The notes under the pieces are model-generated. The model was not told where the DNA came from. It was given only the letters and a program-made list of their open reading frames with translations, and made no database searches. Of a DNA stretch of 64,000 nt, positions 31,735 through 39,371 are shown one piece after another. The stretch's first letter is position 1; every line of letters starts with the position of its first letter. This stretch comes from an uncultured Alphaproteobacteria bacterium (lineage in GTDB: Bacteria > Pseudomonadota > Alphaproteobacteria > Sphingomonadales > Sphingomonadaceae). The stretch spans positions 20,866 through 84,865 of the forward strand of contig CAWAFP010000009.1 of NCBI GenBank assembly GCA_963781355.1. Reading direction: 5' to 3'. The translations under genes were made by a program, and so were the position numbers.

Positions 31735-32023
31735 TGGCCCGATTGGCTTCCCGACCGGCGACTCGGCAGCAATGTTTTGCGTCCCCAACTGCGGTTTACG
31801 CGAGGTTGGTGTCGCAGGCAAAAGGTGACTGGGGATGGCGGAAAGATCGGGTCGCATGTCAATGCAAACCGGCGCGGCGCACGATAACCGTCTGACCTGC
31901 AGAAGGTTGCCGTTGAGCGCTATCGGCCAAGAAATGTTCGGAAAGCAATTGCATCGTGATCTGCCGCCTTGAACAAGATCACCGTAATAATCGAAAAGCC
32001 TTTCGAACCCGTTATGAACGTTC

Positions 32024-33079
32024 TCAGTCCTGCCCCTCCATGAGGGAATGCTTGCGAATGCAATGGCGCAGTTGATCGTAGGTAAGGCCGAGTGCGCGGG
32101 CGGTCTGGCGCTGGTTCCAGCGATGTTTTCCCAACGCATGGGCCAGGATCGCCCGCTCATGCGCGTCGACCGCGGCGCGCAGATCCTCGATGCTGTCGAA
32201 ACTGGGCGCGGCGCCTGCCACCGGCGCAGCGCCGGACGCAGCGCTGGCAGATCCCGCTCCTGATGCTTGCGTCTGGCTGCGCCGGTGTTCGGGAGGACGC
32301 GGGCGCCACGGGCTGTCGAAGGGATCGAACTGAACGTGGGCGATGGCCATGTCCGGCGCGTCCCAGCGATAGACCGCCCGCTCGATTACATTACGCAGCT
32401 CACGGACATTGCCGGGCCAAGGATGATCCTCGAGCGCATCCATCACGTGCGGCGCAAACCCCGGCCAGCGCTCCCAGTCCAGTTCGGCCGCCATGCGCCG
32501 CCCGAAATATTCGGCCAGGACGCCGATATCGCCCTCACGCACCCGCAAAGGCGGCAAGGTGATGACTTCGAAGCTCAGCCGGTCGAGCAGGTCGGCGCGG
32601 AACTCGCCGCTTGCTGCGAGCGCGGGCAGATCATCATTGGTCGCCGCCACGATCCGCACGTCGACCCTGATCGGGCGCGAGGCACCGATGCGGGTGATCT
32701 CGCCATATTCGACCGCGCGCAGCAACCGCTCCTGCGCGCCCATCGACAGAGTGCCGAGTTCGTCAAGGAACAGCGTCCCGCGGTCCGCTTCCTCGAACCG
32801 CCCCACGCGGGTCTTGGTCGCACCGGTAAAGGCGCCTGCTTCATGCCCGAACAGCTCGGCCTCGATCAGCGTTTCGGGAAGCGCGGCGCAGTTCATCGTC
32901 ACCAGCGGTTCGTCCCAGCGGCTCGACAGGCGGTGAAGGCGTTCGGCGATCAGTTCTTTACCCGTACCGCGCTCACCGATCACCAGCACGGGACGGTTCA
33001 TCGCGGCCGCGCGGCTGGCGCGCTCGACCGCGTCGAGAAAGGCCCCTGACTGACCGATGAACTGGCTTTCGAGCTTCAC
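32024..33079 (-). CDS. pspF: Phage shock protein transcriptional activator (sigma54 bEBP)
   Basis: GERGTGKE, GAFTGA, LFLDE, WPGNVREL, HTH tail; no receiver domain; divergent from pspA. Confidence 0.95.
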   Translation of the reverse strand: MKLESQFIGQSGAFLDAVERASRAAAMNRPVLVIGERGTGKELIAERLHRLSSRWDEPLVTMNCAALPETLIEAELFGHEAGAFTGATKTRVGRFEEADRGTLFLDELGTLSMGAQERLLRAVEYGEITRIGASRPIRVDVRIVAATNDDLPALAASGEFRADLLDRLSFEVITLPPLRVREGDIGVLAEYFGRRMAAELDWERWPGFAPHVMDALEDHPWPGNVRELRNVIERAVYRWDAPDMAIAHVQFDPFDSPWRPRPPEHRRSQTQASGAGSASAASGAAPVAGAAPSFDSIEDLRAAVDAHERAILAHALGKHRWNQRQTARALGLTYDQLRHCIRKHSLMEGQD

Positions 33080-33088
33080 ATCCAAACT

Positions 33089-33125
33089 ATAGTGAAAAAC
33101 ACCAATGCTTGGCAATACAGACCAA
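33089..33125. promoter_or_regulatory. Two tandem imperfect 17-bp palindromes, putative PspF enhancer sites
   Basis: ATAGTGAAAAACACCAA (33089-33105) and TTGGCAATACAGACCAA (33109-33125). Confidence 0.5.
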
Positions 33126-33179
33126 CGCTCCCAGAGTGCGGCACAGCAAAAACCCCGCAATTCCGCCGTTTTCGCGGTT

Positions 33180-33195
33180 TGGCACGGCGGTTGCA
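33180..33195 (+). promoter_or_regulatory. sigma54 (-24/-12) promoter of the psp operon
   Basis: TGGCACGGCGGTTGCA, full match to TGGCAC-N5-TTGCW. Confidence 0.9.
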
Positions 33196-33237
33196 AAATA
33201 CCGAGCAACACCACGCATACCACTTGGGAGGCTCACT

Positions 33238-33435
33238 ATGATCGACCGCAACGCCGCAAACGCCCGTTCCTCGGACAGCTTCTGGAACACGAAGCTCGGT
33301 CAGGCAGCAATGGCCAGCATCGCCGCGATGGTGATGATGATCGCGCTGTCGTCGCAGATCCAGCCCAGCGCCGCCCATGCCGCTCCGATCGCTCACCCCG
33401 CTGCCGAATCCGGCGCGATGATCGAGATCGCATAA
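33238..33435 (+). CDS. 65-aa single-TM protein, first gene of the psp transcript
   Basis: RBS GGGAGG; MIDRNAANARSSDSFWNTKLGQAAMASIAAMVMMIALSS... Confidence 0.75.
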   Translation: MIDRNAANARSSDSFWNTKLGQAAMASIAAMVMMIALSSQIQPSAAHAAPIAHPAAESGAMIEIA

Positions 33436-33724
33436 GGTGGGCGACCCCTTTGACCCCCTCGGGCCGGAACGCCCCATGCAGGATGTCCCCCCTGCCGATG
33501 CTGACCGCACCGCGAAGCCCACTCGCGCTGCCTTCGACAGCGATGTTCCGGCCCAACCCTCCCGCCTGCTTTCGGCCACGCGTCTGTCGCGGCTTGATGA
33601 GGAAATCGAAGCCTTGCGCCGCAGCCCCACCCCGACGCAATCTCGCCGGGCAACTGCCGACCAGGAGCACGACCGAGTCGCTCCCCTGGACCGGGTCAAT
33701 TCGTTTCTCGATGGAGTAGCCTTC

Positions 33725-34411
33725 ATGGGCATTTTCAGCCGCACTCGCGACATTATTGCCGCCAATTTCAACGACATGCTTGACAAGGCGGATGACCCGT
33801 CGAAGATGATCCGCATGATCATCCTCGAAATGGAGGAAACCCTGGTCGAAGTCCGCGCCAGCGCGGCGCGCACCATTGCCGACCAGAAGGAAATGCACCG
33901 CCACTGCATGAAGCTCGACCGGCTCCAGGCCGACTGGGGCGAGAAAGCGCAGCTGGCGCTGAGCAAAGACCGCGAAGACCTCGCCCGCGCCGCTCTGGTC
34001 GAAAGGAAGAAGGCCGGCGACATGGCCGACCAGCTCAAGAGCGAAATCGCCGTCCTCGACGACGCCCTGCGCGCCTACGAGGAAGATATCGCCAAGCTGC
34101 AGCACCGTCTGCGTGAAGCCCGCAGCCGCCAGACCGCGATCGCCGCGCGCCTCGAAAGCGCCGAGAACCGCGTCAAGCTGCGCACGCTGATGAGCACCGA
34201 ACGCACCGATGAAGCGCTCGCCCGCTTCGACCAGTTGGAACGCCGGGTCGATTACGCCGAAGGCCGCGCCGACGCGCTGCGGATCGCCGAGGACGGCCCG
34301 CCGAGCCTTGCCGATGAAATTGCCGCCCTCGCCGGGTCGGACGCGATTGATGACGAACTGGCCGCGATGAAGAAAGCGCTTGGCAAAACCGACGACAGCA
34401 AGGGGGAATAA
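33725..34411 (+). CDS. pspA: Phage shock protein A (possible 96-aa in-frame extension from GTG 33437)
   Basis: MGIFSRTRDII.AN.N.MLDKA.DP.KMIR.II.EMEETL; RBS GGAG. Confidence 0.96.
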   Translation: MGIFSRTRDIIAANFNDMLDKADDPSKMIRMIILEMEETLVEVRASAARTIADQKEMHRHCMKLDRLQADWGEKAQLALSKDREDLARAALVERKKAGDMADQLKSEIAVLDDALRAYEEDIAKLQHRLREARSRQTAIAARLESAENRVKLRTLMSTERTDEALARFDQLERRVDYAEGRADALRIAEDGPPSLADEIAALAGSDAIDDELAAMKKALGKTDDSKGE

Positions 34412-34414
34412 GTC

Positions 34415-34720
34415 ATGGATTTCGAAGTCATTCTTGTCGTCGCAATGCTGTTCATCGGTCTGCCCTGGGTCATTCTGCATTACATGACCAAGTGGAAGAC
34501 TGCCGCCACGATCACCGTTGATGACGAAGTGCTGCTGGAGGAACTCTACAACCTCGCCAAGCGGCTCGATGAACGGATGGACACGGTCGAACGTCTCGTC
34601 GCCAGCGACGACCCCGGTTTCACCCCCGCCCGCCGCCTGATCGCCGATCAGGAACAAGACAACCAGCAACTGCGCGAATTGGAAGCGCTGATCGCCGAGA
34701 AGAAGGGAACCCGCGCATGA
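34415..34720 (+). CDS. pspB: Phage shock protein B
   Basis: LPWVILHY TM segment, RL.ERM..VE.L coiled coil. Confidence 0.92.
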   Translation: MDFEVILVVAMLFIGLPWVILHYMTKWKTAATITVDDEVLLEELYNLAKRLDERMDTVERLVASDDPGFTPARRLIADQEQDNQQLRELEALIAEKKGTRA

Positions 34721-35094
34721 ACAGCCCCCGCACCACGCTCTACCGTGACAAGCACAATGCCAAGCTGATGGGCGTGTGCTCCGGCATCGCCGACTACACC
34801 GGGGTGAACGTCTTCTGGGTCCGTATGGCCGCGTTCTTCTCGATGTTCATCACCGGCGGCTGGTCGATCCTCGCCTATTTCGTGGCGGGCTTCATCCTCA
34901 ACAAGAAGCCGCCGCACCTCTACCGCGACGAAAGCGAGCAGAAGTACTGGCAGTCCGTGCGCCAGAGCCCGAAGCGCACCGCCCGCGAAATCCGCGCTGC
35001 GTTCCGTGACGTCGACCGGCGGCTGGCCGCAGTGGAAACCCACTATGTCAGCAGCAACCCGCGCCTGACCGCCGAGATCGAGCGGCTGCGCTAA
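34717..35094 (+). CDS. pspC: Phage shock protein C
   Basis: LYRDK.NAKLMGVCSGIADY.GV PspC domain. Confidence 0.94.
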   Translation: MNSPRTTLYRDKHNAKLMGVCSGIADYTGVNVFWVRMAAFFSMFITGGWSILAYFVAGFILNKKPPHLYRDESEQKYWQSVRQSPKRTAREIRAAFRDVDRRLAAVETHYVSSNPRLTAEIERLR

Positions 35095-35125
35095 GCCCGA
35101 ACTCACGCAAGGGGGACCGAAGAAT

Positions 35126-35437
35126 ATGGAAGGTTATCTTGCCTTGATGATCCCGATCATCGCGATGATGATCCCGATCGTCGCCATCTGGACCAAGCAT
35201 CAACAGAAGCTGGCGGAGATGCAGATTGGCTCCACCGCCGAACAGACCGCCGAGAAGGCTGCGCAATATGCGACCCATATCCAGCGGCTGGAAGACCGGG
35301 TGCAAGTGCTCGAACGCATCGTCACCGATCGTGGCTACGACATCGCCACCCAGATCGAAGCCCTGCGCGACCAGCGCCGGGTGGATGAGGGCGGCGCGGG
35401 CGTGCCGCTCGGCCTCGAGAAGAAGGAGCGCGTGTGA
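35126..35437 (+). CDS. PspB/PspC-like paralogue 1 (TM + coiled coil)
   Basis: N-terminal TM; LEDRVQVLERIVTDRGYDIATQIEALR. Confidence 0.85.
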   Translation: MEGYLALMIPIIAMMIPIVAIWTKHQQKLAEMQIGSTAEQTAEKAAQYATHIQRLEDRVQVLERIVTDRGYDIATQIEALRDQRRVDEGGAGVPLGLEKKERV

Positions 35438-35790
35438 TGCCGCATGATCCGAGCTTCATCGTCGCCATCGTGATGATCTGCACCGGCGGCTGGCTGATCA
35501 ACAACTGGATCCGCGCCAAGCACGGCTATGCCCTCGAAGACGAATGGGGCGGCAAGACCGAACGCAAAGAAACCGCAGAATCGCGGGCCGAGACGGAACG
35601 GCTGAAGGCCGAAAACCGCGAACTGCACGGCAAGGTCGAAGCGATGCAGGACCGGCTGGTCGTGCTGGAAAAGATTGTCACCGACCGTGGCTACACGCTC
35701 GCCCAGGAAATCGAAGCGCTGCGCGAAGTGCGGACTGAGGACCACGGCACGGGCGTCCCGCTCGGTATTGCGAAGAAGGAGCGCGTGTAA
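35437..35790 (+). CDS. PspB/PspC-like paralogue 2
   Basis: TM; IRAKHGYALEDEWG; MQDRLVVLEKIVTDRGYTLAQEIEALR. Confidence 0.85.
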   Translation: MPHDPSFIVAIVMICTGGWLINNWIRAKHGYALEDEWGGKTERKETAESRAETERLKAENRELHGKVEAMQDRLVVLEKIVTDRGYTLAQEIEALREVRTEDHGTGVPLGIAKKERV

Positions 35791-36149
35791 TGGAGAATTT
35801 CGACGCTTTTCTCCCGTATCTCGGCTGGATCATCGGCGGCGGCTTCACGCTCGGCGCGCTCGGGATTCTGGCCTCGTTCCAGACCACCCGCATGAAGATC
35901 AAGAACGGTTATCCGCTTGAAGGCATGTGGGGCCAGTCACTGAAACCCGGCTCGGACAAGGAGACCGCACACCGCGTCACCCTGCTGACCCAGGAAAACG
36001 CCGAACTGCGCGCTGAACTCGGTGCGATGAAGGACCGGCTGGTCAATGTCGAACGGATCGTGACCGACGGCGGCTACCACCTCGGTGCGGAAATCGATGC
36101 GCTGCGGGATCGCGCCCTGTCCGGTCTCAAGGACAAGGGGGAAGCGTGA
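35790..36149 (+). CDS. PspB/PspC-like paralogue 3
   Basis: TM; KIKNGYPLEGMWG; MKDRLVNVERIVTDGGYHLGAEIDALR. Confidence 0.85.
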   Translation: MENFDAFLPYLGWIIGGGFTLGALGILASFQTTRMKIKNGYPLEGMWGQSLKPGSDKETAHRVTLLTQENAELRAELGAMKDRLVNVERIVTDGGYHLGAEIDALRDRALSGLKDKGEA

Positions 36150-36463
36150 TGGCCGAAATGGTTCTGATAGCGATGACCATCGTCGCGATCGTCCTGATCA
36201 CGGGCATGACGCTGAACGGCATCGTCGACAAGGTGATGCAGGGCAAGCGCCTGCGCCATGACGCTCGGCCTCCAGCCGACCCGCACACCCCCGGCGTCCG
36301 CGAGATCGCTGAACGCCAGCAGATGATCGAAGACCGTCTGCGCGTGCTGGAACGGATCGCCACTGACCGGGGCAGCCTGCTGGCTGACGAGATCGAAGCG
36401 CTGCGCCGCGATACCCTCTCGCTGGCCCCCGCACAGCGCCAGACTGAGAATGTCGCATCATGA
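36149..36463 (+). CDS. PspB/PspC-like paralogue 4
   Basis: TM; IEDRLRVLERIATDRGSLLADEIEALR. Confidence 0.85.
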   Translation: MAEMVLIAMTIVAIVLITGMTLNGIVDKVMQGKRLRHDARPPADPHTPGVREIAERQQMIEDRLRVLERIATDRGSLLADEIEALRRDTLSLAPAQRQTENVAS

Positions 36464-36771
36464 GCAGTTGGGCAATCGTCGCGCTGGTCGCAATTGTGAT
36501 CTGGGGGATCGTCGAATCGATCCGGGCCCGGGCTGGCATCATCACCGACGAGGACGGCAACCAGAAGGTCGTGGCCCGCGAAGATGGCCGCAGCCTGGCC
36601 GAAATCGAAGCCGCACGGCGCGAGGTGAGCGAGCTCAAGGAACGGGTGAAGGTGCTCGAACGCATCGTCACCGACAGCAACACCGGCGATGCGCGCGTGA
36701 CGGCGCAGATCGCTGCCGAAATCGAAGCGCTGCGGGCCCTACCGCAGGCGAAGGAGGAACAGCGCAAATGA
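36460..36771 (+). CDS. PspB/PspC-like paralogue 5
   Basis: TM; LKERVKVLERIVTD...IAAEIEALR. Confidence 0.85.
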   Translation: MSSWAIVALVAIVIWGIVESIRARAGIITDEDGNQKVVAREDGRSLAEIEAARREVSELKERVKVLERIVTDSNTGDARVTAQIAAEIEALRALPQAKEEQRK

Positions 36772-37019
36772 TCACTCCGCTTCTCGACCCTTCCGTGATC
36801 ACCGCCACGTCCGGCCTGATCGCGATCATCGTCATCGCCGCCGCGCTGCTGCGTGGCTGGCAGGGCTGGCTTGACCTCAAGCGGCAGGAGCTGGACCGCA
36901 ACGCCCACCACCCTGCGGCTGCGGACGGTTCCAGCATCGGCACCGCCCGGATCGAACTGGCCGATCTCAAGGAGCGCATCCGCAAGCTGGAAGCCATCGC
37001 CAGCGGGGTCGAACTGTGA
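36768..37019 (+). CDS. PspB-like paralogue 6 (83 aa)
   Basis: ATGA overlap; TM; LADLKERIRKLEAIASGVEL. Lies within track ORF 36450-37019. Confidence 0.85.
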   Translation: MITPLLDPSVITATSGLIAIIVIAAALLRGWQGWLDLKRQELDRNAHHPAAADGSSIGTARIELADLKERIRKLEAIASGVEL

Positions 37020-37192
37020 GCACAGCCCGCAACACTGCGACGCAGGCGGGTATCGGTCTCGGCACAGCGATTGCAGTGGCGATCAGCTGGAGCGTCAACC
37101 AGTCGATCATCTGGGCGATCGTCCACGGCTTCTTCAGCTGGTTCTATGTGATCTACTATGCCCTCACCCGGCCCGGGGGGCTGAGCGGGTAA
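37016..37192 (+). CDS. 58-aa hydrophobic microprotein, last gene of the psp array
   Basis: Translated by hand: MSTARNTATQAGIGLGTAIAVAISWSVNQSIIWAIVHGFFSWFYVIYYALTRPGGLSG; GTGA overlap. Confidence 0.75.
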   Translation: MSTARNTATQAGIGLGTAIAVAISWSVNQSIIWAIVHGFFSWFYVIYYALTRPGGLSG

Positions 37193-37218
37193 TTGCTCGG
37201 AACTGCCTCCTCCCAACC

Positions 37219-37310
37219 CCGTTCATGCTGAGCTTGTCGAAGCATCGCCCTTTCTTCTAGGGCAATTGCGCAAGAGTAGAGCAGCCCTTCGACAGGCTCA
37301 GGGCGAACGG
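37219..37310. repeat. REP-like palindromic element, family B
   Basis: CCGTTCATGCTGAGCTTGTCGAAGC ... CCCTTCGACAGGCTCAGGGCGAACGG inverted ends. Confidence 0.82.
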
Positions 37311-37319
37311 AGTTAGTAA

Positions 37320-37740
37320 TTGCGCACCCTTTCCGATATTCTCGAGGAGTATGAATTCCTCGAAGGCGACGAGCGTTACGGCCTGCTGATCGAGCTTGGC
37401 CGCGCGCTCGAACCCATGCCTGATGCGCTCAAGACTGATGCGACACTGGTGCGCGGGTGTTCGGCGGCGGTGTGGGTCTATCCCGCCTCGCAGGAGGAGC
37501 AGAAGCTGCATTTCCTCGCCGACAGCAATGCCGCGATCACCAAGGGCATTGTCGCACTGGTGATCGCCGCCGTGCAGGACAGGCCCGCCGCCGAGGTCGC
37601 GCAGATGGACGTGATGGGCGCGCTCGCCCCGTTCGATCTCAAGAGCCAGCTATCGAGCAACCGCACCCAAGGCGTGCCGAACATGATCGCGCTGGTGAAG
37701 GAACATGCCGCGCGGCTGGCGGGGCGGGATGCGCAGTTGT
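37320..37740 (+). CDS. sufE: SufE-family Fe-S sulfur acceptor; 3' end uncertain (ORF reads on to 37976)
   Basis: Y.LLIELGR.L, VRGCSAAVW, DSNAAITKGIVAL, LSSNRTQG; similarity ends near 37725. Confidence 0.88.
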
Positions 37741-37884
37741 CACGCGTGACGATGGTCAGGGCTGCGGCCTGCCGTCACGCGAGTCTCACGGTGGGAGTCA
37801 GCGGCGATGGGGGCGGGGGTCATCCCTCGCCAGCGTGTCGCGGTCACGTCCCCGGACCGCTGAGAACTGGCGAGGCGGAGCGCC

Positions 37885-38421
37885 CTAGAGGTTGCGGCCC
37901 ACTGTCTCGAAGCCGTCACCGCCCGCGCCGACGCTGTCACGCACCACCGCCAGCCCTGCTTCCTTCTGCGCCTTGAGCTCGGCCTTCAGCTTGGCCGGAT
38001 CGCGCGCGAAGACGAAGCCGAAGCTCACCCCGCCCTCTTTCCCGATCGTGGCGTGGTGGAGCTTGTGCGCCTGCACCAGCCGCTTGGCGTAACCCTTGCG
38101 CGGCACCCACTTCCAGTAGCGCTGGTGGACCAGGCCATCGTGAACCAGCGTGTAGATCACTCCGTAAAGCGTGATCCCGACCGCAAACCACCACAGCCAA
38201 TCCCAGTAGAGCGAGCCGTAGATATACATCGCAGCGTTGATCGTGCCGAACACCACCGCGAACAAATCATTCTTCTCCAGCACATTGTCATGCGGCTCGT
38301 GATGGTCGCGGTGCCAGCCCCAGCCCCACCCGTGCATGATATACTTGTGCGCAACCCACGCGAACAGCTCCATGCCGATCAGCGAGGACATCACGGTCAG
38401 GAAAATTGCGAGCCAGCTCAT
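37885..38421 (-). CDS. crtZ: Beta-carotene hydroxylase
   Basis: HKYIMHGWGWGWHRDHH, EKND, HDGLVHQR, AHKLHH, SFGF. Confidence 0.96.
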   Translation of the reverse strand: MSWLAIFLTVMSSLIGMELFAWVAHKYIMHGWGWGWHRDHHEPHDNVLEKNDLFAVVFGTINAAMYIYGSLYWDWLWWFAVGITLYGVIYTLVHDGLVHQRYWKWVPRKGYAKRLVQAHKLHHATIGKEGGVSFGFVFARDPAKLKAELKAQKEAGLAVVRDSVGAGGDGFETVGRNL

Positions 38422-39215
38422 GCAGGCACCTTCTCAATCAATTCAACGCGACCCACCCCGGCCCGGCGCGCACGCGGCAGCGCCCACCACGGCACATCGG
38501 GGCGGCGGTGGTGTTCGAGATGATAGCCGAAATGGAAGCACGAGGCGAGGCTCGCCAGCGTACCGAAATCCTCGCTGCGGGTGTTGTGGCGGTCAGCGAA
38601 GTCCGTCGCATCCTCGACAGGCGCGTGGCGGTGCGGGCGGAAGGTGCCGAAGTAGAACAGCTGGAGCGATGATCCCAGCGCAGGCAGTCCATAGAGCAGC
38701 ACGATCTGCACCATCGGAATATCCAGCACCAGCCAGTAGATGCCGACCACGGTGTGCACAAACAGGATCGAGCGCCAGCCGAAATAGCGCCGGAAGAAGG
38801 TGCCGTACCAGCGCAGGAAATTGCCCGGATTGTGCTCGTCGAAATCGGGATCGCCCGGACGGCCGGCCAGCTTGTGATGATCGAAATGCGCATCGCGCAG
38901 CTGCTTCCATGCGAACCCCGCATACAGCGCCAGCAGCACCGCGCCGATTGCTCCGTTGATGCGCGGCTGACCGGGCACCAGCGTCCCGTGCATCGCATCA
39001 TGGCAGACAATGAACACGCCGACCGAAAGCCAGCACTGCACTGCTGCGAGCCCCAGCGCGAAAGGCCAGTTGCTCCAGGTCAATTCGAAAACGAACATAC
39101 CGTAAGCGTGGATGCCCAGCCAGCTCCCGGCTATCGCTAGCGCCAGCGCAAGGCCGATGGCGCTCTGCAAGGTTCGCTTGGGCAGCGTGAAGCCGGGGGC
39201 AAATTGCGGGTTCAT
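38418..39215 (-). CDS. crtW: Beta-carotene ketolase
   Basis: His boxes HDAMH, HFDHH, HLEHH; GDPDF, LFYFGTF.PH, CFHFGYH. Confidence 0.95.
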   Translation of the reverse strand: MNPQFAPGFTLPKRTLQSAIGLALALAIAGSWLGIHAYGMFVFELTWSNWPFALGLAAVQCWLSVGVFIVCHDAMHGTLVPGQPRINGAIGAVLLALYAGFAWKQLRDAHFDHHKLAGRPGDPDFDEHNPGNFLRWYGTFFRRYFGWRSILFVHTVVGIYWLVLDIPMVQIVLLYGLPALGSSLQLFYFGTFRPHRHAPVEDATDFADRHNTRSEDFGTLASLASCFHFGYHLEHHRRPDVPWWALPRARRAGVGRVELIEKVPA

Positions 39216-39371
39216 CGAACGAAGGATACGCACGGGCAAGCCATGCAGATGCGTATAGACCGCGCGGCCCCTAAGGCAATTGCGTTTGCGCGAAGGTTCA
39301 TCGCGCGAGACAAAACGCCGGCGCCCCTTTGGGACACCGGCGCATTGGTCGCAAAGTTTGGCTGCTCAGTC

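What the first reader, a model, noticed from the sequence alone, without database searches (positions are those of the whole stretch)
34415..37192. Expanded phage-shock operon: six tandem PspB/PspC-like adaptor paralogues behind pspABC
Seen: six 83-119 aa genes follow pspC, each with one N-terminal TM and a shared coiled-coil motif. P1 LEDRVQVLERIVTDRGYDIATQIEALR; P2 MQDRLVVLEKIVTDRGYTLAQEIEALR; P3 MKDRLVNVERIVTDGGYHLGAEIDALR; P4 IEDRLRVLERIATDRGSLLADEIEALR; P5 LKERVKVLERIVTD..IAAEIEALR; P6 LKERIRKLEAIA. PspC itself ends VDRRLAAVETHYVSSNPRLTAEIERLR. Every junction from P1 on is a start/stop overlap. P1/P2 share a GVPLG..KKERV tail and P2/P3 share (K/H)xGYxLExxWG, while TMs and linkers diverge. 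Established: PspA is an ESCRT-III-like membrane remodeller, and in Yersinia/E. coli PspB-PspC sense stress and the PspC C-terminal helix recruits PspA. Inference: a diversified set of PspB-topology proteins carrying a PspC-type tail, forming a multi-input sensor or hetero-oligomeric scaffold for PspA. I know of no characterisation of such an array, but could not check the literature or databases.
Basis: partly seen in the sequence, partly recalled or inferred. Interest (0 to 1): 0.85.

Follow-up and report, generated by a model that had tools for sequence, protein, structure and literature searches.

The report
Tandem PspB-like genes extending psp operon
Six real, conserved small membrane-protein genes related to PspB and to the tail of PspC extend the membrane-stress (phage-shock) operon of this Porphyrobacter/Erythrobacter-type bacterium; the layout was already catalogued in Erythrobacter litoralis in 2024, but its function has never been tested.

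Summary
Behind a sigma54 promoter and pspA-pspB-pspC lie six translationally coupled genes, P1-P6, and a seventh 58-aa gene, P7. Each of P1-P6 has one N-terminal transmembrane helix with predicted N-out/C-in topology. P1-P5 carry a cytoplasmic helix ending in L-E-R-I-V-T-D...E-I-E-A-L-R. P6 has only the first half of that motif.

Profile comparisons relate this domain to the PspC C-terminal zipper (93.9%) and to PspB (81.8%). No copy reaches a curated PspB or PspC cut-off.

The array is old and specific to the GTDB family Sphingomonadaceae. 138 of 151 sampled genomes have 1-7 copies (median 4). The copies are always in the psp operon and in a conserved order of distinct orthogroups. 12 of the 13 genomes without copies also lack pspA. 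Beyond the family, only solitary or paired relatives turned up in the class and phylum samples.

RNA-library contigs bridge every gene junction. Depth rises at the sigma54 promoter.

The arrangement is not new. Ravi et al. 2024 (mSystems, Table S3) list it for Erythrobacter litoralis as "PspB duplicates in the operon". No experiment exists.

My best reading is that these are stoichiometrically co-made PspB-superfamily subunits that pair with PspB, PspC or each other and dock or regulate PspA. That mechanism is inferred, not shown.

The parts
32024..33223 (-). pspF, sigma54 enhancer-binding activator. These are the limits of the maximal ORF; the AAA+ core starts near 33100. It keeps the 'LSSRW' loop.
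   Evidence: translation. The same divergent gene is found in all 20 related loci at E 1e-141 to 1e-195.
33180..33195 (+). Sigma54 -24/-12 promoter, TGGCACggcggTTGCA.
   Evidence: It is the only exact match in the 64-kb window. One such site at the equivalent place occurs in 15 of 21 loci, and none lies inside any array. RNA depth rises just downstream, and one cDNA contig begins at 33232.
33238..33435 (+). X, a 65-aa small hydrophobic ORF in the leader. It is the 'X' of Ravi et al. and corresponds to ZMO1062 of Z. mobilis.
   Evidence: homologue in 11 of 21 loci..
33437..33724 (+). Open frame running in phase into pspA. It encodes the conserved motif LSRLDEEIEALRRSPTPTQ and could be a long PspA isoform.
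   Evidence: the motif is conserved in 15 of 21 loci, there is no stop before the pspA ATG, and GGAG is embedded just upstream of that ATG.
33725..34411 (+). pspA
   Evidence: TIGR02977 275.7 bits (cut-off 242.95); PF04012 E 1.3e-36.
34415..34720 (+). pspB
   Evidence: TIGR02976 83.8 bits (cut-off 51.7); PF06667 71.4 bits.
34717..35094 (+). pspC, with a C-terminal zipper ending ...RLTAEIERLR.
   Evidence: TIGR02978 130.6 bits (cut-off 104); PF04024.
35126..35437 (+). P1, 103 aa, TM 5-23. P1-type orthogroup, with the AEKAAQYA motif and a GVPLG..KKERV tail.
   Evidence: TIGR02976 31.1 bits, below cut-off. Clade of 16 rows from 15 genomes, SH-aLRT 97.
35434..35790 (+). P2, 118 aa, TM 8-26. It has an invariant juxtamembrane motif W.NNWIRAKHGYxLEDEWGG.
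   Evidence: More than 1,345 homologues, all named 'hypothetical' or carrying generic automatic names. Invariant columns. AF2 model: helix 6-30 and helix 48-101, pLDDT 68.
35790..36149 (+). P3, 119 aa, TM 11-29. P3-type orthogroup, with the motif RxKNGYPLExxWGQ.
   Evidence: Clade of 21 rows, one per genome, SH-aLRT 99.
36146..36463 (+). P4, 105 aa, TM 5-23. This is the fastest-evolving copy.
   Evidence: End branch 0.98 in the tree, and no strongly supported group contains it.
36460..36771 (+). P5, 103 aa, TM 3-21. P5-type orthogroup, with RARxGIxxDxxGN; it is always the last full-length copy.
   Evidence: Clade of 21 rows, SH-aLRT 99.
36768..37019 (+). P6, 83 aa, TM 10-28. A truncated relative that carries only the first zipper helix (LKERIRKLEAIA). 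It follows the last full-length copy in every array.
   Evidence: Present in all 20 related loci at E 1e-17 to 1e-27. hhalign P-type vs P6 gives 93.9%.
37016..37192 (+). P7, a 58-aa aromatic-rich membrane peptide. It is not a PspB relative and is only sporadically present.
   Evidence: Present in 5 of 21 loci. No family hit. dN/dS about 0.24. One RNA contig crosses the P6/P7 junction.

Best explanation
The region is the distal half of one PspF/sigma54-dependent psp operon: X, pspA, pspB, pspC, P1-P6 and P7.

P1-P6 are diverged members of the PspB superfamily. Each is a single-pass inner-membrane protein with a predicted periplasmic N-terminus. Each has a cytoplasmic helix of about 55 residues that ends in the same zipper found at the C-terminus of PspC. 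P6 has only the first half of that zipper.

The paralogues arose by old tandem duplications within Sphingomonadaceae (as GTDB defines the family). They have been kept as distinct orthologous lineages in a fixed order. Each lineage has its own conserved juxtamembrane module.

The genes are translationally coupled, so the proteins are probably made together in roughly fixed proportions.

The following step is inferred by analogy. In Yersinia and E. coli the PspC C-terminal domain switches between PspB and PspA. The zippers here probably pair in the same way with PspB, with the PspC tail and with each other, forming a hetero-oligomeric membrane complex. That complex would dock PspA at the membrane or set the threshold for releasing PspA from PspF. 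The different juxtamembrane modules would supply different inputs or partners.

Shown here: gene reality, homology, phyletic linkage to pspA, operon context and transcription.
Inferred: topology, hetero-oligomerisation, PspA binding and a role in signalling.
For: - Genes, overlaps and motifs.
- pspA, pspB and pspC pass the curated cut-offs.
- Homology: hhalign gives P-type vs PspC tail 93.9% over 38 columns and vs PspB 81.8% over 22 columns. Controls (X, P7, PspA) give 1.5% or less.
- 16 of 50 P-types hit the PspC C-terminus and 11 of 50 hit PspB.
- Solitary relatives in other classes align full length to TIGR02976 at up to 40.7 bits.
- Topology: no K/R before the TM and 2-3 after it. AF2 models a TM helix plus one long helix.
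- Age and selection: 138 of 151 family genomes carry copies. All 20 sampled loci read pspF<->(X)pspABC-[3-7 P-type]-P6-(P7); sufE follows in 18 of the 20. The P3 and P5 orthogroups hold 21 rows each from 21 loci, with SH-aLRT 99. dN/dS is 0.2-0.47.
- Linkage to Psp: 12 of 13 family genomes without P-types have no pspA. The 13th has pspA at a contig end. The genome has no copy outside this locus.
- Operon: there is one conserved sigma54 site and none inside the arrays; within the arrays (pspA to the last small gene) intergenic gaps run from -4 to about 70 nt, apart from one artefact of a missed gene in L040. No terminator-like site lies on the + strand inside the array.
- Transcription: in four RNA libraries depth is about 0-12, with one bin at 40, over pspF, then 30-260 from about 33270. 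Contigs bridge pspC/P1, P1/P2, P2/P3, P3/P4, P4/P5, P5/P6 and P6/P7.
- In Zymomonas, of the same family, X-pspABC is induced by ethanol and xylose stress while the neighbouring sufE moves the opposite way.
- Independent literature annotates the extra genes as PspB domains.
Against: - No P-type reaches a curated PspB or PspC cut-off. The similarity rests on a 22-38-residue amphipathic helix, a kind of sequence prone to spurious coiled-coil matches (one search finds only generic coiled coils in the PDB).
- No interaction was or could be tested.
- The AF2 monomer has moderate confidence (pLDDT 68) and shows a straight helix, which says nothing about partners.
- Related small proteins occur alone or in pairs with no psp gene within the 8-9 kb fetched, in other Pseudomonadota. 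The domain therefore does not require PspA.
- Some family members keep pspABC with zero or one copy, so the array is dispensable for a working Psp system.
- The RNA evidence comes from contigs of close relatives in metatranscriptomes. Depth is a poor measure, strand is unknown and DNA carry-over is possible. Depth falls after P1.
Confidence: 0.6

Rival explanations
1. The P proteins are inducible decoys or buffers rather than scaffolds. Their PspC-like tails would compete with PspC for PspB or PspA. They would damp or reset the response as they accumulate after induction, giving negative feedback.
For: Their tail is closer to the PspC tail, the PspA/PspB-binding part in Yersinia, than to PspB. 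They lack the PspC head domain. They lie distal in the induced operon, where RNA depth is lower than over pspA-pspC. An earlier scan note proposed a similar role for a free PspC-tail protein (e1-2319135).
Against: Nothing here separates competition from cooperation. A simple decoy does not need five distinct lineages, each with its own invariant juxtamembrane module and a fixed order.
Confidence: 0.2
2. The copies are functionally redundant. The array would only raise the dosage of a PspB-like protein, and the differences between copies would be neutral drift.
For: Copy number varies from 0 to 7 among family members. P4-like copies evolve fast and are gained or lost in individual lineages. dN/dS is higher than for pspABC.
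Against: The P3-type and P5-type lineages each hold 21 rows from the 21 loci sampled, with SH-aLRT 99, and the order is conserved. The paralogue-specific juxtamembrane motifs are invariant across 46 P2 orthologues. Paralogues within one genome are only 29-45% identical.
Confidence: 0.1
3. The small proteins have a role of their own that does not involve Psp, for example a generic membrane coiled-coil function. They would merely ride on the stress-induced transcript.
For: Solitary or paired homologues occur with no psp gene in the fetched region, in a Sphingomonadales MAG, in Emcibacter and in other classes; one lies beside msrA. Weak hits to FtsL/DivIC-type models appear.
Against: Within the family they are found only in the psp operon and disappear together with pspA. 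Their best family-level similarities are consistently PspB and the PspC tail.
Confidence: 0.08
4. Some or all of the ORFs are not real genes but chance open frames in GC-rich DNA.
For: The DNA is 63% GC and has many long spurious ORFs on both strands.
Against: More than 1,345 homologues for P2 alone. Orthologues across more than 100 genera. dN/dS below 0.5. Conserved start/stop coupling with Shine-Dalgarno sequences. RNA coverage.
Confidence: 0.01

Closest known systems
'PspB duplicates in the operon' of Erythrobacter litoralis (Ravi et al. 2024, mSystems 9:e00847-23, PMC11237479, Table S3 row AOL22920.1)
   Same: The architecture is the same, gene for gene: divergent PspF, X, PspA, PspB, PspC with a PspB-like tail, then a run of small proteins each with a signal or TM segment and a PspB-like domain. 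The bacterial family is also the same.
   Different: That record is one table row and one sentence. It stops at the fifth extra gene because of its +/-7-gene window, and so misses P6 and P7. It gives no distribution, orthogroups, transcription data or function. This window comes from a Porphyrobacter-like strain; the nearest named relatives are Porphyrobacter sp. SLTP and IPPAS B-1204.
PspB (PF06667 / TIGR02976) of E. coli and Yersinia enterocolitica
   Same: Both are small proteins with one N-terminal TM and a cytoplasmic helical domain carrying the h-x-x-R-h-x-x-h-E-x-I motif. Both are encoded in the PspF/sigma54 operon next to pspC.
   Different: The P proteins fall below the family cut-offs (best 31.1 bits against 51.7). 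They are longer, at 83-119 aa against about 75. They have extra juxtamembrane modules and a second helix motif (EIEALR) that canonical PspB lacks but PspC has.
C-terminal leucine-zipper domain of PspC (TIGR02978 positions about 80-121). From my own knowledge, this domain binds PspB or PspA in Yersinia (Flores-Kim and Darwin; Gueguen et al. 2009).
   Same: This is the best profile match: 93.9% over 38 columns, running to the extreme C-terminus ...EIE(A/R)LR. 16 of 50 members hit this part of TIGR02978.
   Different: The P proteins lack the PspC domain proper (PF04024) and its N-terminal cytoplasmic region.
Arrays of single-TM coiled-coil paralogues beside pspA in Gemmatimonadota, and a five-PspB operon in another genome
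   Same: They show the same theme: several differentiated small single-pass coiled-coil proteins encoded next to pspA.
   Different: They come from other phyla and have a different gene order and regulation. These are unchecked AI notes, and I did not test homology to the present family.

Membership tests
PspB family (Pfam PF06667 / NCBIfam TIGR02976) | Score at or above the curated family cut-off | tested here: not met
   The best result is P1, at 31.1 bits against a cut-off of 51.7 (TIGR02976) and 15.8 against 25.6 (PF06667). P2-P6 score lower or give no hit. Of 50 family members, 11 hit TIGR02976 and 3 hit PF06667 at E<=0.01, and none passes the cut-off.
PspB family (Pfam PF06667 / NCBIfam TIGR02976) | Remote homology of the cytoplasmic helical domain, by profile-profile comparison and bridging sequences | tested here: met
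   hhalign P-type vs PspB gives 81.8%, E 1e-5, over 22 columns; controls give 1.5% or less. Solitary P-type relatives align full length to TIGR02976 (1-68 to 1-69 of 75, 40.7 bits) and have PspB as their top Pfam hit in 5 of 6 cases.
PspB family (Pfam PF06667 / NCBIfam TIGR02976) | Single N-terminal transmembrane anchor with a cytoplasmic C-terminal domain | tested here: met
   There is one Kyte-Doolittle peak per protein, with no K/R in the N flank and 2-3 in the C flank. AF2 models a TM helix at 6-30 and a long helix at 48-101. This is a prediction only.
PspB family (Pfam PF06667 / NCBIfam TIGR02976) | Encoded in a PspF/sigma54-controlled operon with pspA and pspC | tested here: met
   RNA contigs cross all junctions.
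PspB family (Pfam PF06667 / NCBIfam TIGR02976) | Binds PspC and controls PspA-PspF signalling | not testable with these tools
   No multimer prediction or experiment is available.
PspC family (Pfam PF04024 / NCBIfam TIGR02978) | PspC domain (N-terminal region plus its membrane segment) | tested here: not met
   No PF04024 hit in P1-P6. The TIGR02978 hits cover only model positions from about 44-83 to the C-terminus at 120-121.
PspC family (Pfam PF04024 / NCBIfam TIGR02978) | C-terminal zipper tail | tested here: met
   hhalign gives 93.9% over 38 columns, up to the last residue of PspC. 16 of 50 members hit this region.
Catalogued 'pspFABC operon with PspB duplicates' (Ravi et al. 2024) | Divergent pspF, then X, pspA, pspB, pspC with a PspB-like tail, then several small TM + PspB-like genes in tandem | tested here: met
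   The window layout matches the published row. The same layout is seen in 20 of 20 sampled related loci.

The most novel reading that the evidence does not exclude
The paralogues are not alternatives. They would be the ordered subunits of one hetero-oligomeric membrane receptor for the ESCRT-III-like PspA polymer. Translationally coupled synthesis would lay down P1...P6 in fixed proportions. Their PspC-type zippers would bundle into a cytoplasmic stalk, capped by the truncated P6. The lineage-specific juxtamembrane modules would read different membrane defects. The in-frame N-terminal extension of PspA carries the same EIEALR helix and occurs in exactly the genomes that have the P1-type copy. 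That extension would plug a long PspA isoform into this stalk.
Probability: 0.15. Interest if true: 0.7.

Novelty: already known. Interest (0 to 1): 0.33.

Why it matters
How the small membrane proteins PspB and PspC pass membrane stress on to PspA is still only partly understood, even in enterobacteria. A natural system keeps five to seven differentiated PspB/PspC-tail proteins in fixed order across a whole bacterial family. It could show which parts of the zipper bind PspA and which bind other membrane subunits, and what the juxtamembrane modules sense.

It also matters for annotation. More than a thousand database entries for these proteins are 'hypothetical', and no Pfam or NCBIfam model covers them.

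The arrangement itself has been published as a catalogue entry. This report therefore adds detail rather than a discovery: family-wide conservation, orthogroups, the terminal P6, loss together with pspA, and transcript evidence.

Tried and rejected
- The RNA-labelled run X14 gave 7.6-kb contigs covering both strands at flat depth, and its longest record is 69 kb. It behaves like genomic DNA and says nothing about transcription.
- The search for related loci with the 50-sequence alignment failed because no conserved stretch was found. It was repeated with the five window paralogues.
- A PDB sequence search with the family profile found only generic coiled coils (prefoldin, KcsA tail, GCN4) at E>0.02, so there is no structural relative.
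- The AF2 monomer of P2 gave only a TM helix and a long helix at pLDDT 68. I did not run a fold search on it, because a single helix gives meaningless matches.
- The consensus terminator scan found no convincing terminator after P7. The one + strand hit, at 37126-37140, lies inside P7.
- A second sigma54-like site at 37060-37075 has one mismatch and sits inside P7. Five such hits were found in the window against 2.1 expected by chance, so I treat it as chance.
- Literature searches for psp in sphingomonads found only Zymomonas transcriptomes that stop at pspC.
- I considered that the P genes might be duplicated 3' halves of pspC rather than of pspB. The data cannot separate the two, since P1 aligns slightly better to PspB while the family profile aligns better to the PspC tail.
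- PspD/PspG identity for P7 or X: no family hit for P7; X was not scanned against any family library.


Full report
**1. What is in the sequence**

The ORF listing and direct translation place the following on the + strand:
- a small ORF X, 33238-33435
- pspA, ATG at 33725, ending at 34411
- pspB, 34415-34720
- pspC, 34717-35094
- P1 (35126-35437), P2 (35434-35790), P3 (35790-36149), P4 (36146-36463), P5 (36460-36771) and P6 (36768-37019)

pspF lies divergently on the - strand. pspA, pspB and pspC pass the curated Pfam and NCBIfam cut-offs.

An exact sigma54 -24/-12 element, TGGCACggcggTTGCA, sits at 33180-33195. Every junction from P1 to P7 is a 1- or 4-nt start/stop overlap.

Part of their conservation is therefore at the nucleotide level.

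**2. The proteins**

Each of P1-P6 has one N-terminal hydrophobic segment. No K/R precedes it and 2-3 follow it, which is the PspB-like N-out/C-in pattern.

P1-P5 share R-x(4)-E-x-I-x-T-D ... I-x-A-L-R. P6 keeps only the first helix.

An AlphaFold2 model of P2, built on 46 orthologues, gives a TM helix at 6-30, a short loop and one long helix at 48-101. Confidence is moderate, with pLDDT 68.

In those 46 orthologues the juxtamembrane stretch W..N.W.RA.HGY.LE..WG is invariant. The constraint therefore extends beyond the zipper.

**3. Homology**

Single-sequence scans give only sub-threshold hits. P1 hits PspB at 31.1 bits against a cut-off of 51.7. P1-P4 hit the C-terminal part of PspC faintly, and P5 hits only PspB faintly.

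I built alignments from 21 loci. With these, hhalign relates the P-type family as follows:

| Comparison | Probability | Detail |
|---|---|---|
| P-type vs PspC tail | 93.9% | E 1.6e-7, 38 columns, up to the last residue |
| P-type vs PspB | 81.8% | E 1.1e-5, 22 columns |
| P-type vs P6 | 93.9% | 46 columns |
| Controls (X, P7, PspA) | 1.5% or less | |

Of 50 P-type proteins scanned one by one, 16 hit TIGR02978 (PspC, C-terminal part) and 11 hit TIGR02976 (PspB) at E<=0.01. None passes a cut-off.

Solitary relatives from other classes bridge the gap. One aligns end to end with TIGR02976 at 40.7 bits, and five of six have PspB as their top Pfam hit.

My conclusion is that P1-P6 belong to the PspB superfamily in the broad sense used by Ravi et al., who also class the PspC tail as a divergent PspB domain. 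They are not members of the curated PspB or PspC families.

**4. Distribution**

The HMM built from the five window paralogues hits only this locus in the window's own genome.

In the GTDB family, 138 of 151 sampled genomes have 1-7 hits. The histogram is 9, 13, 32, 39, 29, 14 and 2 genomes for 1 to 7 hits, with a median of 4. A few of the single hits are the PspC tail itself.

Of the 13 genomes without hits, 12 also lack pspA. The 13th has pspA at the end of a short contig.

All 20 loci fetched from different genera read pspF <-> (X) pspA-pspB-pspC-[3-7 P-type]-P6-(P7); sufE was found just downstream in 18 of them.

Reduced forms exist. Some genomes have pspABC with zero or one P-type, or with P6 alone. 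One is a 2.1-Mb, Zymomonas-like genome with one copy.

In a class-wide sample of 401 genomes and a phylum-wide sample of 401, only solitary or paired relatives appear outside the family, and no psp gene lay in the 8-9 kb fetched around those examined. No genome outside the family had three or more adjacent copies in these samples.

The nearest named relatives of the window are Porphyrobacter sp. SLTP and IPPAS B-1204.

**5. Age and selection**

A maximum-likelihood tree of 100 P-type proteins resolves orthogroups that cut across genomes:
- a P3-type clade of 21 rows from the 21 loci, SH-aLRT 99
- a P5-type clade of 21 rows, SH-aLRT 99
- a P2-type group of 19 rows, SH-aLRT 93
- a P1-type clade in 15 genomes, SH-aLRT 97
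- variable P4-like copies

The order along the operon is conserved. Pairwise dN/dS is 0.2-0.47 for P1-P6, against 0.07-0.15 for pspA in the closest pairs. The duplications are therefore old and the copies are kept under purifying selection as distinct genes.

**6. Transcription**

One conserved sigma54 site per locus lies 390-545 bp upstream of pspA in 15 of 21 loci. None lies inside an array. From pspA to the last small gene, intergenic gaps are -4 to about 70 nt; the one 283-nt gap, in L040, reflects a gene missed by my parser. No terminator-like site lies on the + strand inside the array.

Four RNA libraries hold close relatives at 95-100% identity: three wastewater metatranscriptomes and one organism transcriptome. 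In these, contig depth is near zero over pspF and rises from about 33270. One cDNA contig starts at 33232 directly after adapter sequence. Depth is highest over pspA to P1 and lower but present through P6/P7.

Individual contigs bridge pspC/P1, P1/P2, P2/P3, P3/P4/P5, P5/P6 and P6/P7.

There are caveats. These are contigs, not reads, they have no strand, depth is approximate and DNA carry-over cannot be excluded. A fifth 'RNA' run was evidently genomic.

In Zymomonas mobilis, X-pspABC (ZMO1062-1065) is induced by ethanol and xylose stress, while sufE (ZMO1067) moves the other way. This fits an operon that ends before sufE.

**7. What is already known**

Ravi et al. [quoted passage not shown] That is this operon, cut off by their seven-gene window. 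I found no experimental study of it.

I reached mine from the paper and from my own searches before reading that note. It is not independent evidence.

**8. Mechanism**

Shown: these are real, conserved, PspB/PspC-tail-related single-pass proteins. They are encoded and transcribed with pspABC, and they are lost together with pspA.

Inferred: the zippers are cytoplasmic and pair with PspB, with the PspC tail and with each other, as the PspC C-terminal domain does with PspB and PspA in Yersinia (established knowledge; not tested here). Coupled translation would yield fixed proportions, which points to subunits of one complex. The paralogue-specific juxtamembrane modules would give different inputs or partners.

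A decoy or negative-feedback role is the main rival and cannot be excluded. Simple redundancy is unlikely, given the old orthogroups. A Psp-independent role is unlikely within this family, although solitary relatives elsewhere show that the domain can work without a linked psp operon.

**9. Verdict**

The novelty claim is not upheld, because the array is catalogued. Interest is moderate to low. It is a good experimental system for PspB/PspC-PspA coupling, but it is not a new kind of system.

Noticed in passing
window 33437-33724: The frame upstream of pspA is open and in phase with it. It encodes a conserved peptide, M(S/N)KP..PLGPE...LSRL(D/E)xE(I/V)ExLRRSPTPTQ..., and GGAG is embedded just before the pspA ATG. 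The motif is present in 15 of 21 loci. In several loci the frame starts at a 4-nt overlap with the stop of X. These are exactly the 15 genomes that carry the P1-type paralogue, though that may reflect a single clade. It could be a long PspA isoform carrying an EIEALR helix like the paralogues (relates to scan note e1-5260008).
   Followed up: partly
window 33238-33435: The small hydrophobic ORF X, between the sigma54 promoter and pspA, has homologues in 11 of 21 related loci. It corresponds to the 'X' of Ravi et al. and to ZMO1062 of Z. mobilis, which is co-induced with pspABC. dN/dS is about 0.4.
   Followed up: partly
window 37016-37192: P7 is a 58-aa aromatic-rich membrane peptide overlapping the P6 stop. 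It occurs in only 5 of 21 loci but is well conserved where present (75-82% identity, dN/dS about 0.24). It has no family hit.
   Followed up: partly
window 35415-35437, 35768-35790, 36127-36149, 36749-36771: The conserved K/E/G-rich C-terminal tails of the paralogues (and of PspB) overlap the Shine-Dalgarno sequence of the next gene. Protein-level 'motifs' at these ends are partly constraints on the ribosome-binding site.
   Followed up: yes
L066 4477-4713; L154-L159: Solitary or paired P-type homologues of 78-99 aa occur outside psp operons in a Sphingomonadales MAG, in Emcibacter and in other Pseudomonadota classes. The copy in the Sphingomonadales MAG lies between msrA and a GAF-domain gene. 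All are unannotated, with sub-threshold PspB hits.
   Followed up: partly
window 37320-37760 (+) and 37885-39239 (-): sufE follows the operon, and this synteny holds in 18 of the 20 sampled loci. In Z. mobilis sufE is regulated in the opposite direction to psp. Beyond it lie crtZ-like (37885-38421) and crtW-like (38418-39239) carotenoid genes on the - strand.
   Followed up: no
window 37060-37075: A one-mismatch sigma54-like site, CGGCACagcgaTTGCA, lies inside P7 and points towards sufE. It is probably chance: five hits in the window against 2.1 expected.
   Followed up: no
run X14 laid on window 32000-38500: A public run labelled as transcriptomic RNA-Seq yields contigs of 7.6 to 69 kb covering both strands at flat depth. 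In effect it is genomic DNA of a strain about 98% identical to the window.
   Followed up: yes
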